From Escherichia phage APC_JM3.2: a DNA stretch of 39,761 nt. A program made the position numbers and the translations under genes. Within the stretch, counting starts at the first letter, position 1, and each line of letters begins with the position of its first letter. The notes under the pieces are model-generated. The model was not told where the DNA came from and did not search any database. It worked only from the letters and a program-made list of their open reading frames with translations. Where the stretch lies: sequence record MG197996.1. One strand, written 5' to 3'. This document shows positions 552 to 5,862 of the stretch, piece by piece.

Positions 552-2432
552 ATGACTCCAAGTGAACTGAGCGACCTGCTTTGGGCGCAGGTTGACAGGG
601 TGGCTCCGCACCTGTTGCCAAACGGCAAGAAAGAGGGGCATGAGTGGGTTGCCGGTAACGTCAACGGTGACAAGGGAAACAGCCTTAAGGTCAACCTTAG
701 CGGCAAGAAAAAATGGGCTGATTTCGCTGAGGGAGACGGCGGTGACATGCTTGATTTGTGGATGGCATGTCGTGGAATTAACCTGCATCAGGCTATGCAG
801 GAAGCGAAAGCATTTCTCGGTATCAAGGATGACGATCACCATTTCGATGCCAAACGTGAGAAAAAATTCTCCAGACCTGATCGCAAGAAAATCGCCCGCT
901 ACGTTACCAGAACAGAATCCCATCTTGAGTACCTGCAATCGCGTGGTATATCGCCAGAAGTCGTAAAGCGCTACGAGGTTGTCAGCGGCAAGGTGTGGAA
1001 TGGAGAGCGAGAACTGGATGCTCTGGTGCTTCCGTACAAACGCGATGGTGAGTTGTTGCAGGTCAAGCGAATCAGCACTGATCGCCCGGACGGGAAGAAA
1101 GTAATTATGGCAGAAGGTGATTGCGAACCTTGTCTGTTCGGATGGCAGGCTCTGGACGCTGGCGTGAGGGCGGTTGTACTTTGCGAAGGCGAAATTGATT
1201 GTATGAGCTATGCGCAATACGGCATCTCGGCGTTATCCGTGCCGTTTGGTGGCGGGAAAGGCGCTAAGCAACAGTGGATTGAGTTTGAGTATCACAACCT
1301 CGACAGGTTTGAGGAAATATTCATCTCGATGGACGTTGATGATGTTGGTCGTGAAGCCGCAAGGGAAATCGCAAGCCGACTCGGTGAACATCGTTGCCGT
1401 CTTGTTACGCTACCGTACAAAGACATCAACGAATGCCTGATGAACGGTGTTACCGAGGATGAAATCTGGCAGTACATCGGCACGGCATCCTACTTCGACC
1501 CCGAAGAACTCTACAGCGCGCGAGAGTTTTACCAGGACACTATCAACGCTTTCTACGGCAAGCAGCAGTATCTGTTTAATCCACCGTGGAAATCTCTGGC
1601 AGATAAATTCCAGTTCCGTGAGGCAGAGTTGACGCTGGTCAATGGTGTGAACGGTCACGGAAAAACTGAGGTTGTCGGGCATATGGCACTTGAGGCAATG
1701 CGTCAGGGTGTGAAGACGTGCATCGCGTCACTTGAGCTGAAGCCAGGCATTCTCCTTAAGCGACTTACCCGTCAGGCGACGTGCTGCAAGATGCCGCCAG
1801 TGCTGGAAATTGACTCTGCATTTAAATTTTATGACGAAAGACTTTGGGTGTTTGGCCTGACCGGAACGGCGAAAGCCGACAGGCTGATCGAAATATTCGA
1901 CTACGCTCGCCGCCGGTACGGCATCCAGTTATTCATCATCGACAGCCTGATGAAATGCGGCATAGGTGACGATGACTATAACGGGCAGAAGGCGTTTGTT
2001 GACTCGATTTGCGATTTCAAAAACAAAACAAACTCCCACGTCATTCTCGTTGCTCACTCGCGAAAAGGAGACAGCGAAGAAAAACCAACCGGGAAAATGG
2101 ACGTAAAAGGCTCTGGAGCGATAACAGACCTGACAGACAACCTTTTCATCATCTGGCGTAACAAGGCTCGCGAGAGAGCGTTACAGAGAGTTCAGAGTGG
2201 TGAAAAGATGTCAGAGAAGGACGAACAGTTACTGGCATCTCCGGCATCTGTTTTGATGCTTGAAAAACAACGTAACGGCGAAGGTTGGGAAGGTGGTGTC
2301 CCGTTGTTCCTTGACGAGCAATCGCACCAGTTCCTGCAACTTGAATCAGGATCGCCATATAGCTACATCGCCAATATGCCGAAATCGGAATATGACGAGG
2401 CGTGGCGACAGGAAAACGTGACGGAGTATTAA
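552..2432 (+). CDS. Bifunctional DNA primase / DnaB-family replicative helicase
   Basis: 626-aa ORF, GAGG RBS before ATG 552; N-terminal primase-like region, C-terminal RecA-fold helicase region with Walker-A-like NGVNGHGKT and Walker-B-like LFIIDSL. Confidence 0.8.
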   Translation: MTPSELSDLLWAQVDRVAPHLLPNGKKEGHEWVAGNVNGDKGNSLKVNLSGKKKWADFAEGDGGDMLDLWMACRGINLHQAMQEAKAFLGIKDDDHHFDAKREKKFSRPDRKKIARYVTRTESHLEYLQSRGISPEVVKRYEVVSGKVWNGERELDALVLPYKRDGELLQVKRISTDRPDGKKVIMAEGDCEPCLFGWQALDAGVRAVVLCEGEIDCMSYAQYGISALSVPFGGGKGAKQQWIEFEYHNLDRFEEIFISMDVDDVGREAAREIASRLGEHRCRLVTLPYKDINECLMNGVTEDEIWQYIGTASYFDPEELYSAREFYQDTINAFYGKQQYLFNPPWKSLADKFQFREAELTLVNGVNGHGKTEVVGHMALEAMRQGVKTCIASLELKPGILLKRLTRQATCCKMPPVLEIDSAFKFYDERLWVFGLTGTAKADRLIEIFDYARRRYGIQLFIIDSLMKCGIGDDDYNGQKAFVDSICDFKNKTNSHVILVAHSRKGDSEEKPTGKMDVKGSGAITDLTDNLFIIWRNKARERALQRVQSGEKMSEKDEQLLASPASVLMLEKQRNGEGWEGGVPLFLDEQSHQFLQLESGSPYSYIANMPKSEYDEAWRQENVTEY

Positions 2433-2509
2433 ATGACCATCTACATCACTGAGCTTGTAACAGGCCTGCTGGTAATCGCAGGCCTTTTTATTTGGGGGAG
2501 AGGGAAGTC

Positions 2510-2926
2510 ATGAAAAAACTAACCTTTGAAATTCGATCTCCAGCACATCAGCAGAACGCTATTCACGCAGTACAGCAAATCCTTCCAGACCCAATCAAAC
2601 CAATCGTAGTAACCATTCAGGAACGCAACCGCAGCATTCGGCAAAATGCACGCCTTCACGCGATGCTATCTGAAATAAGTAAGAAGGCTACATATCATGG
2701 AAAAGCAAGAAATATTGAGTTTTGGAAGGGGTTATTCGTTTCTGGTTGGCAGATTGCAACCAACCAGCACCCTGAGATTATATCAGGGTTAGAAGGTGAG
2801 CTAATAAACATCAGAGAGAGTACGGCGACTCTATCTGTAAAAAAAATATCCGAAATAATGGACTACATAGAAGCATATTGTGCCATGAACTCAATTCATC
2901 TTAGCGAATGGAGGAATTATGATTGA
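2510..2926 (+). CDS. ninB: NinB recombination protein (C-terminus replaced relative to lambda NinB)
   Basis: MKKLTFEIRSPAHQQNAIHAVQQILPD... matches lambda NinB N-terminus as recalled; GGGAGAGGGAAG RBS before ATG 2510. Confidence 0.85.
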   Translation: MKKLTFEIRSPAHQQNAIHAVQQILPDPIKPIVVTIQERNRSIRQNARLHAMLSEISKKATYHGKARNIEFWKGLFVSGWQIATNQHPEIISGLEGELINIRESTATLSVKKISEIMDYIEAYCAMNSIHLSEWRNYD

Positions 2927-3521
2927 GGTTTGGGTAGATATCGAAGGGATTCCATTTTATCAGGTTAGCAATAAAGGAAATTTCAGGTCTATTACGAGGG
3001 AAGTTACAGTAACATCAACCAGACAGAGGCCATATAAGAAAATAATTAATGGCACTAGCGTAAAACCATTCAAGTGCAAGTCGACAGGATATCTTCAAAT
3101 AAAGGTATACGGTAAGAAATACAGCGCCCACAGGATAGTTGCGAAAGCATTCTGTACAGGGTTCTGTGATGGCTTGGTAGTTAATCACAAAAATGGGCAA
3201 AGAGATGACAATAGGGCTGAAAACCTTGAATGGGTATCACATTCTGAAAACTCAAAGCACGGATATAAACAAAATGGAAGAATACCTATATCGCTAGGTA
3301 AATTTAGTGGTGATCATCCTGCCAGTAAAGCTGTTATTTCTACTGACATGAAAACTGGTGAGGAGGTTTATTATGAAGCAGCTATGGATGCTGTCAGAGA
3401 AGGATTTGATAGTTCGTCAATTAGTCGTTGCTGTAATGGCGAAAGCTCATATCACAAAGGAAGATTCTGGCGATTTGCAAATGAAACAATGAAAGCGAGA
3501 TGGGGAGATCGGGCTGCATGA
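2919..3521 (+). CDS. HNH homing endonuclease (NUMOD4-like N-terminus plus HNH motif)
   Basis: 200-aa ORF with strong GGAGG RBS; motif VNHKNGQRDDNRAENLEWVSHSEN; ORF terminates in KARWGDRAA, the recalled lambda NinB C-terminus. Confidence 0.8.
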   Translation: MIEVWVDIEGIPFYQVSNKGNFRSITREVTVTSTRQRPYKKIINGTSVKPFKCKSTGYLQIKVYGKKYSAHRIVAKAFCTGFCDGLVVNHKNGQRDDNRAENLEWVSHSENSKHGYKQNGRIPISLGKFSGDHPASKAVISTDMKTGEEVYYEAAMDAVREGFDSSSISRCCNGESSYHKGRFWRFANETMKARWGDRAA

Positions 3522-4390
3522 TAAATGTCGTTAGTTTCTCCGGTGGCAGGACGTCAGCATATTTGCTCTGGCTAATGGAGCAAAAGCGACGGGCAGGTAA
3601 AGACGTGCATTACGTTTTCATGGATACAGGTTGTGAACATCCAATGACATATCGGTTTGTCAGGGAAGTTGTGAAGTTCTGGGATATACCGCTCACCGTA
3701 TTGCAGGTTGATATCAACCCGGAGCTTGGACAGCCAAATGGTTATACGGTATGGGAACCAAAGGATATTCAGACGCGAATGCCTGTTCTGAAGCCATTTA
3801 TCGATATGGTAAAGAAATATGGCACTCCATACGTCGGCGGCGCGTTCTGCACTGACAGATTAAAACTCGTTCCCTTCACCAAATACTGTAATGACCATTT
3901 CGGGCGAGGGAATTACACCACGTGGATTGGCATCAGAGCTGATGAACCGAAGCGGCTAAAGCCAAAGCCTGGAATCAGATATCTTGCTGAACTGTCAGAC
4001 TTTGAGAAGGAGGATATCCTCGCATGGTGGAAGCAACAACCATTCGATTTGCAAATACCGGAACATCTCGGTAACTGCATATTCTGCATTAAAAAATCAA
4101 CGCAAAAAATCGGACTTGCCTGCAAAGATGAGGAGGGATTGCAGCGTGTTTTTAATGAGGTCATCACGGGATCCCATGTGCGTGACGGACATCGGGAAAC
4201 GCCAAAGGAGATTATGTACCGAGGAAGAATGTCGCTGGACGGTATCGCGAAAATGTATTCAGAAAATGATTATCAATCCCTGTATCAGGACATGGTACGA
4301 GCTAAAAGATTCGATACCGGCTCTTGTTCTGAGTCATGCGAAATATTTGGAGGGCAGCTTGATTTCGACTTCGGGAGGGAAGCTGCATGA
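3518..4390 (+). CDS. ninC: NinC (PAPS-reductase-like protein, lambda ORF290 type)
   Basis: [42 protein letters not shown]... near-identical to lambda NinC as recalled; ATGA overlap with upstream stop. Confidence 0.9.
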
Positions 4391-4703: not shown

Positions 4704-5089
4704 CAATGGATTATTCACAGTTAAGTGATTTTGAAATTAACGTGGCGGTATTCGAAGCCATTCATAACGGATCACCGGATTACAAAGAAGGTGAGAATGG
4801 CGCGATGGTGTTTATCTCATTTGAGGGAGACATTGTAAACGGAGACGCAGTTGAAGTAGAGGTTGAGCGCGGATCCTTTAACCCATGCGCAAACCCAGCA
4901 GACGCATGGCCGATTATCACTGAAAACAACATCAGCATAATTTTAGACAATCCCTCAATGCCGTGCGCTACAGACAACGCAAGGGACTTGTTTGATGATG
5001 CCGGACCGAATGTTGGTGTCGCATATGACAATCCACTCCGTGCCGCCATGATTGTCTTTCTCATGATGCAGGACGCCAATAATGCTTAG
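4700..5089 (+). CDS. NinX-like protein
   Basis: ATG overlapping ninE stop; [17 protein letters not shown]... resembles P22-type NinX N-terminus as recalled; position between ninE and ninF. Confidence 0.55.
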
Positions 5090-5258
5090 CCCATCCCAAT
5101 CCCTTCAATACCAGAAAGAAAGCGTCGAGCGGGCTTTAACGTGCGCTAACTGCGGTCAGAAGCTGCATGTGCTGGAAGTTCATGTGTGTGAGCACTGCTG
5201 CGCAGAACTGATGAGCGATCCGAATAGCTCAATGTACGAGGAAGAATACGATGGCTAA
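5082..5258 (+). CDS. ninF: NinF
   Basis: 58-aa [49 protein letters not shown]... matches lambda NinF as recalled; below ORF-track cutoff, translated by hand. Confidence 0.75.
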
Positions 5259-5862
5259 ACCAGCGCGAAGACGATGTAAAAACGAAGAATGTCGGGAATG
5301 GTTTCACCCTGCATTCGCTAATCAGTGGTGGTGCTCTCCAGAGTGTGGAACAAAGATAGCACTCGAACGACGAAGCAAAGAACGCGAAAAAGCGGAAAAA
5401 GCAGCAGAGAAGAAACGGCGACGAGAGGAGCAGAAACAGAAAGATAAACTTAAGATTCGAAAACTCGCCTTAAAGCCCCGCAGTTACTGGATTAAACAAG
5501 CCCAACAAGCCGTAAACGCCTTCATCAGAGAAAGAGACCGCGACTTACCATGTATCTCGTGCGGAACGCTCACGTCTGCTCAGTGGGATGCCGGGCATTA
5601 CCGGACAACTGCTGCGGCACCTCAACTCCGATTTGATGAACGCAATATTCACAAGCAATGCGTGGTGTGCAACCAGCACAAAAGCGGAAATCTCGTTCCG
5701 TATCGCGTCGAACTGATTAACCGCATCGGGCAGGAAGCAGTAGACGAAATCGAATCAAACCATAGCCGCCATCGCTGGACTATCGAAGAGTGCAAGGCGA
5801 TCAAGGCAGAGTACCAACAGAAACTCAAAGACCTGCGAAATAGCAGAAGTGAGGCCGCATGA
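5251..5862 (+). CDS. ninG: NinG / Rap, recombination-associated junction endonuclease
   Basis: 203-aa ORF with lambda NinG-like sequence (cysteine cluster, basic coiled region); overlaps ninF stop. Confidence 0.9.

What the first reader, a model, noticed from the sequence alone, without database searches (positions are those of the whole stretch)
2919..3521. HNH homing endonuclease inserted at the 3' end of ninB, capturing the NinB C-terminus
NinB here ends with a non-lambda tail (..HLSEWRNYD), while the overlapping HNH endonuclease ORF terminates in KARWGDRAA, which I recall as the lambda NinB C-terminus, and uses the ATGA junction into ninC. This is the footprint of a mobile HNH gene inserted a few codons before the ninB stop.
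Basis: partly seen in the sequence, partly recalled or inferred. Interest (0 to 1): 0.5.

Follow-up and report, generated by a model that had tools for sequence, protein, structure and literature searches.

The report
Mobile HNH nuclease gene at ninB
A homing-endonuclease-like HNH gene, travelling with a foreign version of the phage recombination gene ninB, has replaced most of the lambda-type ninB in this P22-like prophage and reads in frame into the old gene's last nine codons; the module is already annotated in many Shiga-toxin phages, so it is a tidy but fairly ordinary case of phage mosaicism.

Summary
ninB (2510-2926) ends ...HLSEWRNYD. The overlapping 200-aa ORF (2919-3521) has I-HmuI-like architecture (NUMOD4 + HNH_3 + NUMOD-like). 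It ends in KARWGDRAA, the last nine residues of lambda NinB, and stops in the ATGA that starts ninC.

This is not a 579-bp insertion into an intact ninB. An 855-bp low-GC block (2636-3490) replaces 284 bp of lambda-type ninB (codons 43-137). The block holds the 3' two-thirds of a different ninB lineage ("ninB*") plus the HNH gene. Only 30 nt of the old gene survive.

RNYD is the natural end of ninB*. Similar endings occur in relatives that carry no HNH or an unrelated HNH.

The module is 99% identical in 62 phage records, almost all Stx phages, and occurs in 77 of 5,426 E. coli genomes. Its downstream neighbour varies: ninC, dam, ninD or ninE.

Homologues of this HNH, and an unrelated HNH-AP2 gene at the same site, repeatedly end in frame in NinB C-terminal remnants of different types.

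Best reading: a free-standing homing-endonuclease gene linked to its own ninB allele. Cleavage and homing are inferred, not shown. It is an uncharacterised member of a known kind, of moderate interest.

The parts
2510..2635 (+). 5' third of ninB (codons 1-42), lambda-type. The left crossover lies in the conserved block 2596-2635 (..PIVVTIQERNRS), which is identical in lambda, SEN22, P27 and the window.
   Evidence: 97.5% identical to lambda over 2433-2635; four-way alignment.
2636..2926 (+). 3' two-thirds of ninB from a different lineage (ninB*, codons 43-138 plus stop). The Pfam NinB domain is complete, with a short native C-terminus ...SEWRNYD*. It lacks the equivalent of lambda residues about 135-146. 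It carries the Shine-Dalgarno sequence GGAGG (2910-2914) for the HNH gene.
   Evidence: Pfam NinB model positions 4-129 of 131; about 38% aa identity to lambda-type NinB over this part; GC 0.40; same type of ending in HNH-less L171.
2636..3490 (+). Low-GC replacement block (ninB* 3' part plus HNH-specific sequence). It substitutes for 284 bp of lambda-type ninB.
   Evidence: Breakpoints versus lambda and IME10; GC 0.385-0.40 against 0.46-0.51 in the flanks; 99.1% identical in 62 phage records.
2919..3521 (+). HNH endonuclease ORF, 200 aa. Its ATG overlaps the ninB* end by 8 nt (ATGATTGA). Domains: NUMOD4 at 2925-3107, HNH_3 at 3123-3254, I-HmuI NUMOD-like at 3351-3461.
   Evidence: Pfam; PDB 1U3E I-HmuI E 4.3e-14 over residues 55-186; AlphaFold model pLDDT 85.9 with Foldseek top hit 1U3E at E 5e-13; PADLOC 'HEase' profile covering residues 5-190; all 32 invariant family columns present.
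3491..3521 (+). Remnant of the displaced lambda-type ninB: its last 9 codons (KARWGDRAA, 3492-3518) plus stop, read in frame as the C-terminal tail of the HNH protein.
   Evidence: 31/31 nt identical to IME10 ninB; contiguous 99.3% homology to lambda. The tail lies beyond the I-HmuI alignment and the HEase profile and has low pLDDT.
3518..4390 (+). ninC (PAPS-reductase-like, 290 aa). Its start overlaps the HNH/ninB stop (ATGA).
   Evidence: Pfam PAPS_reduct; lambda annotation.

Best explanation
The region is a two-gene mosaic module. It holds the 3' two-thirds of a heterologous ninB allele (ninB*) followed by a translationally coupled, free-standing I-HmuI-like HNH homing-endonuclease gene. 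The module replaced codons 43-137 of a resident lambda-type ninB.

Shown: the left join lies in the most conserved ninB block. The right join lies 30 nt before the old ninB stop, with at most 1-2 nt of shared sequence at the join. The HNH ORF therefore runs in frame through the last nine ninB codons to the ATGA that starts the next nin gene.

Shown: the module moves between phages as a unit, with variable neighbours on both sides. The HNH protein is under purifying selection. Relatives of this HNH, and an unrelated HNH at the same site, carry in-frame NinB C-terminal remnants of other types.

Inferred: the enzyme nicks or cuts HNH-less ninB alleles or DNA close by. Repair copies the HNH gene together with the linked, presumably resistant ninB* allele (intronless homing with co-conversion). 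In-frame tails persist because ending at the native ATGA keeps translational coupling to the downstream nin genes.
For: Breakpoints against HNH-less lambda and IME10: 2635/2636 and 3490/3491.

Shared low GC of ninB* and HNH.

The module is 99% identical in 62 phage records and occurs in 77 of 5,426 E. coli genomes. Among the loci examined it always ends at 3521. It is followed by ninC, dam methylase, ninD or ninE, and preceded by different replication genes.

The 30-nt tail is more polymorphic (87-97% identity) than the module (99-100%) and matches variants seen in HNH-less alleles.

I-HmuI-like sequence, fold and HEase profile. No intron RNA was found.

Purifying selection: window versus SEN22 shows 79% aa identity, while 51% of the conserved residues use a different codon; dN is 0.14 and dS is saturated.

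Identities are incongruent. Window versus L085 is NinB 34% and HNH 63%. Window versus L167 is NinB 75% and HNH 26%.

The same HNH follows DUF1367 instead of ninB in L004, L009 and L011. L011 keeps a 16-codon ninB* remnant.

15 of 77 homologue tails match NinB C-termini at p<=0.01 against shuffles. In 20 loci, remnants were found in frame and essentially never out of frame.

Decayed copies exist: frameshifted P0124-6, split L088.
Against: No cleavage, target site or biased inheritance has been shown for this enzyme or any close relative that I could find.

The module is in only 1.4% of complete E. coli genomes, so it is not sweeping.

ninB* and the HNH co-diverge from 100% down to about 57% NinB identity. 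That fits a functional partnership as well as linkage to a resistant allele.

The left join sits in the most conserved ninB block, where ordinary homologous recombination would place it anyway.

The residue before the catalytic His is Asn (VVNHKNG), where I-HmuI has Asp (VVDHKDG). From memory, that Asp helps bind the metal. Most family members have Asn and some have Asp.

The number of truly independent in-frame captures may be as low as four. Out-of-frame remnants would also decay faster, which biases the count.
Confidence: 0.6

Rival explanations
1. Simple insertion. A 579-bp HNH cassette (2912-3490, 193 codons) dropped in frame into an intact ninB between a Trp and a Lys codon, nine codons before the stop. 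This gave NinB a new RNYD end.
For: The HNH-specific stretch is an exact multiple of three. The upstream gene ends ..SEW|RNYD and lambda reads ..LEW|KARWGDRAA.
Against: The 276 bp upstream of the supposed insertion point are also non-lambda (about 38% aa identity) and share the HNH gene's low GC. The ..WRxY(N)D/E* ending occurs in L171 without an HNH and in L167/L168 with a different HNH. Pfam aligns window S132 with lambda S128, so SEW is not LEW137. No ...[12 protein letters not shown] protein is among the listed database hits. In SEN22 and an Enterobacter phage the same HNH ends ...ERMAA* without KARWGDR.
Confidence: 0.08
2. Ordinary lambdoid mosaicism with a domesticated nuclease. ninB* and the HNH protein form a cooperating recombination pair that spreads by normal phage recombination at conserved gene boundaries, without endonuclease-driven homing. 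The tail is a neutral scar.
For: Tight co-inheritance and co-divergence of ninB* and HNH. Strong purifying selection. Low frequency in E. coli. NinB-HNH domain fusions are reported in Gram-positive phages (PMC2034487; PMC4118853). The right-hand homology ends exactly at a gene boundary.
Against: The same HNH sits next to DUF1367 and next to NinB clades only 28-49% identical, while staying 51-63% identical itself. An unrelated HNH-AP2 gene occupies the same slot. Frameshifted and split copies exist. The only solved relative is a homing nickase. The HNH domain fused to NinB homologues in Gram-positive phages belongs to a different family (DUF968).
Confidence: 0.27
3. Coincidence or ORF-calling artefact. 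The resemblance of the HNH C-terminus to NinB is chance.
For: A nine-residue match taken alone could be weak evidence.
Against: 31/31 nt identity to IME10 ninB, continuing as 99.3% identity over 410 bp into ninC. The tail score exceeded all 200 shuffles.
Confidence: 0.01

Closest known systems
I-HmuI (PDB 1U3E), the intron-encoded HNH homing nickase of Bacillus phage SPO1
   Same: Same three-part architecture: N-terminal NUMOD4-type DNA-binding sheet, HNH_3 catalytic core, and C-terminal helical NUMOD-like module. It is the only significant sequence hit (E 4e-14) and the only significant fold hit (E 5e-13, 194 columns, 29% identity) in the PDB.
   Different: I-HmuI lies inside a group I intron in a DNA polymerase gene. 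Here no intron RNA is detectable. The gene is a separate ORF overlapping ninB* and carries nine extra C-terminal residues derived from ninB. Asn replaces the Asp that precedes the catalytic His.
Free-standing homing endonucleases of T-even phages (seg and mob genes; 'intronless homing' with co-conversion of flanking markers; review PMC2988022; mobE, PMC2790892)
   Same: A stand-alone nuclease gene sits between or within phage genes. It is variably present among relatives and is inherited together with a stretch of flanking sequence that differs from the nuclease-less allele. Unrelated nuclease genes can occupy the same slot, as in the title of Sandegren et al. listed in PMC2988022 (SegH and Hef replacing mobC and mobE).
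   Different: Those enzymes have demonstrated cleavage sites and biased inheritance; none is shown here. The host is a temperate lambdoid phage rather than T4-like. The nuclease ORF is fused in frame to a remnant of the displaced host gene.
mobE insertion that splits nrdA in Aeromonas phage Aeh1 (the 'genes-in-pieces' RNR; Friedrich et al. 2007, known to me only from its title as listed in PMC2988022; abstract of PMC3045599)
   Same: A free-standing HNH gene lies inside a host coding region, so host-gene sequence is found on both sides of it.
   Different: There the host gene is truly split and both halves are needed. Here the upstream ninB* has a complete NinB domain of its own, and the downstream piece is a 9-codon remnant of a different allele.
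Nuclease genes at boundaries of genetic exchange, and 'HEG islands' (Barth, Dunham and Seed 2023, PMC10448857)
   Same: The HNH gene sits exactly at a mosaic boundary. In E. coli contigs L178-L180, ninB is bracketed by two HNH genes.
   Different: That work covers lytic phages such as ICP1 and T4 (abstract only read). I did not check whether it mentions the ninB site or in-frame capture of host-gene ends.

Membership tests
HNH (beta-beta-alpha-metal) nucleases, Pfam HNH_3 | Match to the HNH_3 profile above the gathering score, with the conserved His/Asn positions present | tested here: met
   45.0 bits against a cut-off of 24.8, residues 69-112. H71, H90, N98, N102 and N111 are invariant across 30 homologues.
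I-HmuI-like homing endonucleases | N-terminal NUMOD4 DNA-binding module | tested here: met
   NUMOD4 at 51.2 bits against a cut-off of 23.4, residues 3-63.
I-HmuI-like homing endonucleases | C-terminal NUMOD-like helical DNA-binding module and overall fold like 1U3E | tested here: met
   The Pfam PF22083 hit is below cut-off (19.3 against 27). But phmmer aligns residues 55-186 to I-HmuI residues 36-170, and Foldseek aligns 194 columns at E 5e-13. The modest TM score (0.46-0.53) is expected for an extended DNA-wrapping protein modelled without DNA.
I-HmuI-like homing endonucleases | Encoded within a self-splicing group I intron | tested here: not met
   No Rfam match at E<=1 in 2300-3800. The ORF overlaps the ninB* stop by 8 nt and ends in the ninC start. 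It is therefore free-standing.
Homing endonuclease genes (functional definition) | Site-specific cleavage of the nuclease-less allele and super-Mendelian inheritance | not testable with these tools
   Needs enzyme assays and phage crosses. No published test was found.
Homing endonuclease genes (functional definition) | Presence/absence polymorphism among close relatives, different genomic partners, and decaying copies | tested here: met
   HNH-less lambda and IME10 share the same breakpoints. DUF1367 and distant-NinB contexts occur. Frameshifted and split copies exist.
Free-standing HEG with co-conversion ('intronless homing') | A flanking tract of donor-type sequence inherited with the nuclease gene | tested here: inconclusive
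   The 276-bp ninB* tract is always linked to the HNH. But the left boundary lies in a universally conserved block, so ordinary recombination explains it equally well.
NinB/Orf recombination mediators (upstream gene) | Complete Pfam NinB core domain | tested here: met
   135 bits, model positions 4-129 of 131.
NinB/Orf recombination mediators (upstream gene) | Lambda-type C-terminal helix (contains W137; implicated in DNA binding, PMC4118853) | tested here: not met
   The window NinB* has 6 residues after the domain, where lambda has 18. This is native to the lineage, not caused by truncation.
Inteins | In-frame insertion without stop codons, carrying Hint splicing motifs | tested here: not met
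   A stop codon (2924-2926) separates ninB* from the rest of the HNH ORF. Pfam found only NUMOD4, HNH_3 and NUMOD-like domains.

The most novel reading that the evidence does not exclude
The 3' end of ninB may be a dedicated homing site used by at least two unrelated HNH families (NUMOD4-HNH and HNH-AP2) across Proteobacterial lambdoid phages. Under this reading each element carries its own cleavage-resistant substitute for the ninB 3' portion, a natural counterpart of a 'cleave and rescue' design. The displaced native 3' end is left fused in frame behind the nuclease. The start of that remnant (lambda NinB residues about 118-121, about 128, or 138) would mark the break point, and its frame would be kept by selection for translational coupling.
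Probability: 0.3. Interest if true: 0.55.

Novelty: new member of a known kind. Interest (0 to 1): 0.38.

Why it matters
If the enzyme does target HNH-less ninB alleles, it would be a tractable example of intronless homing in temperate lambdoid phages, including Shiga-toxin phages. It would also give a concrete mechanism for one of the sharp mosaic boundaries in the nin region. The recurrent in-frame capture of the host gene's end suggests how a nuclease gene can settle inside an operon of overlapping genes without breaking translational coupling. On a practical level, annotation pipelines should not read the short NinB here as truncated, nor the last nine residues as part of the nuclease. As it stands this is an uncharacterised but already annotated gene of a familiar class.

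Tried and rejected
1. Simple 579-bp insertion model: rejected (see rivals).

2. Search for an empty-site ninB* allele. tblastn of the ninB* 3' part against 50,697 phage records found that the 64 records at 85% identity or more, as far as listed and from the DNA search, carry the HNH. The next hit is at 43.5% identity. The large protein search gave no ...[12 protein letters not shown] form. Context look-ups of relatives at 57-78% identity all showed an HNH downstream, except L171.

3. Microhomology at the right join: at most 1-2 nt (G or TG), so a clean microhomology-mediated crossover is not supported.

4. dN/dS: NG86 dS was undefined because synonymous sites are saturated. I report dN and the fraction of conserved residues with changed codons instead.

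5. Group I intron and other RNA families: none found.

6. An HNH-specific promoter or terminator: nothing above shuffle expectation inside the module. Only the terminator-like hairpin upstream of ninB was found.

7. Literature: three searches found no paper on this ninB-HNH junction. Curtis et al. 2014 only mark 'HNH' boxes on ninR maps.

8. Defence-system membership: PADLOC returned only a generic homing-endonuclease profile.

Full report
WHAT IS THERE. The window is a P22-like (Lederbergvirus-type) E. coli phage or prophage. Its best phage matches are IME10 and HZ41. Of 5,426 complete E. coli genomes, only one (NZ_OW968111.1) carries the ninB*-HNH-ninC arrangement, at 99.2% identity; there the upstream gene is a DnaB-like helicase, not the window's primase-helicase.

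After a primase-helicase gene (552-2432) and a terminator-like hairpin (2462-2485) come three genes. The first is ninB (2510-2926, 138 aa). The second is a 200-aa ORF (2919-3521) whose ATG overlaps the ninB end by 8 nt and is preceded by GGAGG. The third is ninC (3518-4390), which starts in the ATGA that ends the 200-aa ORF.

Pfam calls the first gene NinB. For the second it gives NUMOD4 + HNH_3, plus a weak I-HmuI NUMOD-like domain.

THE OBSERVATION. Lambda NinB ends ...[14 protein letters not shown]. The window's HNH ORF ends ...[12 protein letters not shown], and its NinB ends ...HLSEWRNYD. At the DNA level, window 3491-3900 is 99.3% identical to lambda, starting 30 nt before the lambda ninB stop. 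Window 3491-3521 is 31/31 identical to IME10 ninB. So the tail really is a piece of a lambda-type ninB.

THE EVENT WAS A REPLACEMENT, NOT A SMALL INSERTION. Homology to lambda and IME10 on the left stops at 2635 (ninB codon 42) and resumes at 3491. The 855 bp in between replace 284 bp of lambda-type ninB. They hold the 3' two-thirds of a different ninB lineage, here called ninB* (about 38% aa identity to lambda over that part), plus the HNH-specific sequence.

Both parts share a low GC content: 0.40 and 0.385, against 0.46-0.51 in the flanks. The left join lies in a 40-nt block (..PIVVTIQERNRS) that is identical in lambda, SEN22, P27 and the window. The right join shows at most 1-2 nt of shared sequence.

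THE RNYD ENDING IS NATIVE. By the Pfam alignments, window S132 corresponds to lambda S128. NinB* therefore has only six residues after the core domain, where lambda has eighteen.

Endings of the same type occur in three other settings. The first is L171 (58% identical NinB...STWRTYND*), which is followed by a 60-aa non-HNH ORF with the same ATGATTGA overlap. The second is L167/L168, which carry an unrelated HNH. The third is SEN22 and Yersinia. No ...[12 protein letters not shown] form appeared among the listed hits of the 5.8-billion-protein search.

DISTRIBUTION. The 855-bp block is 99.1% identical in 62 phage records, nearly all Stx phages (P27, phage 86 and others). It is 75.6% identical in Salmonella phage SEN22. 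The HNH-specific 579 bp occur in 77 of 5,426 complete E. coli genomes, always beside ninB.

Homology to the window always ends at 3521. Beyond that lie ninC, dam methylase, ninD or ninE. Upstream lie different replication genes or ren.

All E. coli copies share the same ...ATG|AAAGCG join, so one ancestral event made it. But the 30-nt tail is more polymorphic (87-97% identity) than the module (99-100%), and its variants match those of HNH-less alleles. The window tail equals IME10's, and the L177 tail equals lambda's. The tail therefore behaves as flank DNA, not as cargo.

In SEN22 and an Enterobacter phage, the HNH-specific sequence ends at the same ATG. It is followed only by GCNGCATGA, which is the generic nin-gene boundary.

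WHAT THE HNH PROTEIN IS. Its only significant PDB relative is I-HmuI (1U3E), both by sequence (E 4e-14, residues 55-186) and by fold (AlphaFold model with pLDDT 85.9; Foldseek E 5e-13 over 194 columns). A PADLOC 'homing endonuclease' profile covers residues 5-190.

The nine-residue tail lies outside all of these matches and is modelled with low confidence. No group I intron or other Rfam family is present, so the gene is free-standing.

The protein is under purifying selection. Between the window and SEN22, aa identity is 79% while 51% of the conserved residues use different codons. dN is 0.14 and dS is saturated.

One caveat: Asn precedes the catalytic His where I-HmuI has Asp. From memory, that Asp is a metal ligand.

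SIGNS OF MOBILITY.
- HNH-less alleles exist with identical breakpoints.
- The same HNH family follows a DUF1367 gene in L004, L009 and L011. L011 retains a 16-codon ninB* remnant.
- Identities are incongruent. Window versus Serratia L085 gives NinB 34% and HNH 63%. Window versus L167 gives NinB 75% and HNH 26%.
- L167 and L168 carry a different nuclease (HNH_3 + weak AP2) in the same slot.
- Frameshifted, truncated and split copies exist.
- In E. coli contigs L178-L180, ninB is bracketed by an HNH-AP2 gene upstream and the NUMOD4-HNH gene downstream. L175 has a second NUMOD4-HNH gene after ninF.

Against simple selfish spread, ninB* and this HNH co-diverge from 100% down to about 57% NinB identity. 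The module is also rare in E. coli (1.4%).

A RECURRENT PATTERN BEYOND THE WINDOW. Among 120 HNH homologues, 77 have 8 or more residues after the conserved core. Of these, 15 match NinB C-termini at p<=0.01 against 200 shuffles, where about 0.8 would be expected by chance. Examples:
- P0135: ...SRLEIEWATRWGKS
- P0191: ...AFGTQRGVEWSPTSLGRAA
- P0222: ...GTEHGVKWADEAKAA
- L014: ...ERGVVWSDRARQEIVDDWESA

In L163, L166 and L087 the upstream NinB has its own complete C-terminus, and the HNH tail is a second, diverged copy. The unrelated HNH-AP2 genes of L167 and L168 also end in NinB-like tails...DAKNQAIEWASRFGDKQRAAA (p=0.002 and p=0.034).

I scanned all three frames downstream of the HNH core in 20 loci. 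Clear remnants were found only in frame. The junctions fall at lambda NinB positions about 118-121, about 128, and 138.

The number of independent events is uncertain and may be as low as four. Out-of-frame remnants would also decay faster. The in-frame bias is therefore suggestive rather than proven.

MECHANISM. The mosaic anatomy, family membership, selection and recurrence are shown. The rest is inferred by analogy with free-standing T-even endonucleases (PMC2988022, PMC2790892).

On that analogy, the enzyme nicks or cuts HNH-less ninB or nearby DNA. Repair from an HNH+ genome copies the nuclease gene together with the linked ninB* allele. Where the downstream genes differ, the right end is joined illegitimately inside the resident ninB 3' end. 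Products that keep the ninB frame survive, because ending at the native ATGA preserves coupling to the next nin gene.

The main rival is that ninB* and the HNH protein are a cooperating pair moved by ordinary mosaic recombination (confidence about 0.27).

KNOWN OR NEW. The gene is already annotated as 'HNH endonuclease' or 'NUMOD4 domain-containing protein' in dozens of GenBank and RefSeq records. HNH boxes appear on published ninR maps (PMC4118853). In three searches I found no paper describing the ninB remnant, its recurrence, or any assay of this enzyme.

I file it as an uncharacterised member of a known kind: a free-standing I-HmuI-like HNH homing endonuclease. It has one modest twist, the in-frame capture of the host gene's end. 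Interest is 0.38.

Noticed in passing
window 2462-2492: GC-rich hairpin followed by a T-run (AGGCCTGCTGGTAATCGCAGGCCT TTTTATTTGG) just upstream of ninB, inside the stretch that is 97.5% identical to lambda. From memory this corresponds to lambda's tR2 terminator.
   Followed up: partly
L178, L179, L180 (E. coli contigs), about 1412-3000: ninB (P0006, with a completely different N-terminal 35 residues) is bracketed by two nuclease genes. An HNH_3-AP2 gene ends 1 nt before the ninB start, and the NUMOD4-HNH gene overlaps its end. This resembles a small 'HEG island'.
   Followed up: no
L167 2910-3461; L168 2910-3458: An unrelated HNH_3 + weak AP2 endonuclease (about 25% identical to the window's HNH) occupies the same slot after ninB*. 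It also ends in a NinB-like tail (...DAKNQAIEWASRFGDKQRAAA).
   Followed up: partly
L175 2628-3137 (E. coli 2017.06.05CC): A second, shorter gene annotated 'NUMOD4 motif-containing HNH endonuclease' lies after ninF in the same nin region. L005 also shows a second HNH hit at 4839-5381.
   Followed up: no
L011 2342-3585; also L004, L009, L012: The HNH gene follows a DUF1367 gene instead of ninB. In L011, 16 codons of a ninB* 5' end (MKQTYLLRNEAIRNNA) survive just upstream, which suggests DUF1367 displaced ninB*.
   Followed up: partly
L014 3001-3630: The HNH ORF ends in a 21-residue NinB-like tail (ERGVVWSDRARQEIVDDWESA), but no NinB domain is detectable anywhere upstream in the locus.
   Followed up: partly
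P0124-P0126, P0175; L088 3001-3369 and 4090-4392; L008 2575-2940: Decayed copies. P0124-6 are frameshifted E. coli HNH variants whose tail equals the window's alternative-frame ORF at 3358-3492. P0175 is a truncated variant whose C-terminus diverges after about residue 93. In Mixta (L088) the HNH is split by about 700 bp. L008 carries a frameshifted ninB* next to an intact HNH.
   Followed up: partly
L171 2913-3095: A 60-aa ORF of unknown family (MIDWRYYMAK...) sits where the HNH would be, after a 58%-identical NinB*. It uses the same ATGATTGA overlap.
   Followed up: partly
L163 5541-6567: The DnaB-like helicase on the same metagenomic contig has a weak Hom_end_hint (intein) hit. It may be another mobile element in the same phage.
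   Followed up: no
window 3491-3521 compared with L175, L176, L177, L008: Synonymous variants in the 30-nt ninB remnant (GATCGG, GACAGG, GACCGG; L008 has GATAAA, giving Lys for Arg) mirror variants seen in HNH-less ninB alleles of lambda and IME10. This implies crossovers within or just upstream of this very short stretch.
   Followed up: partly
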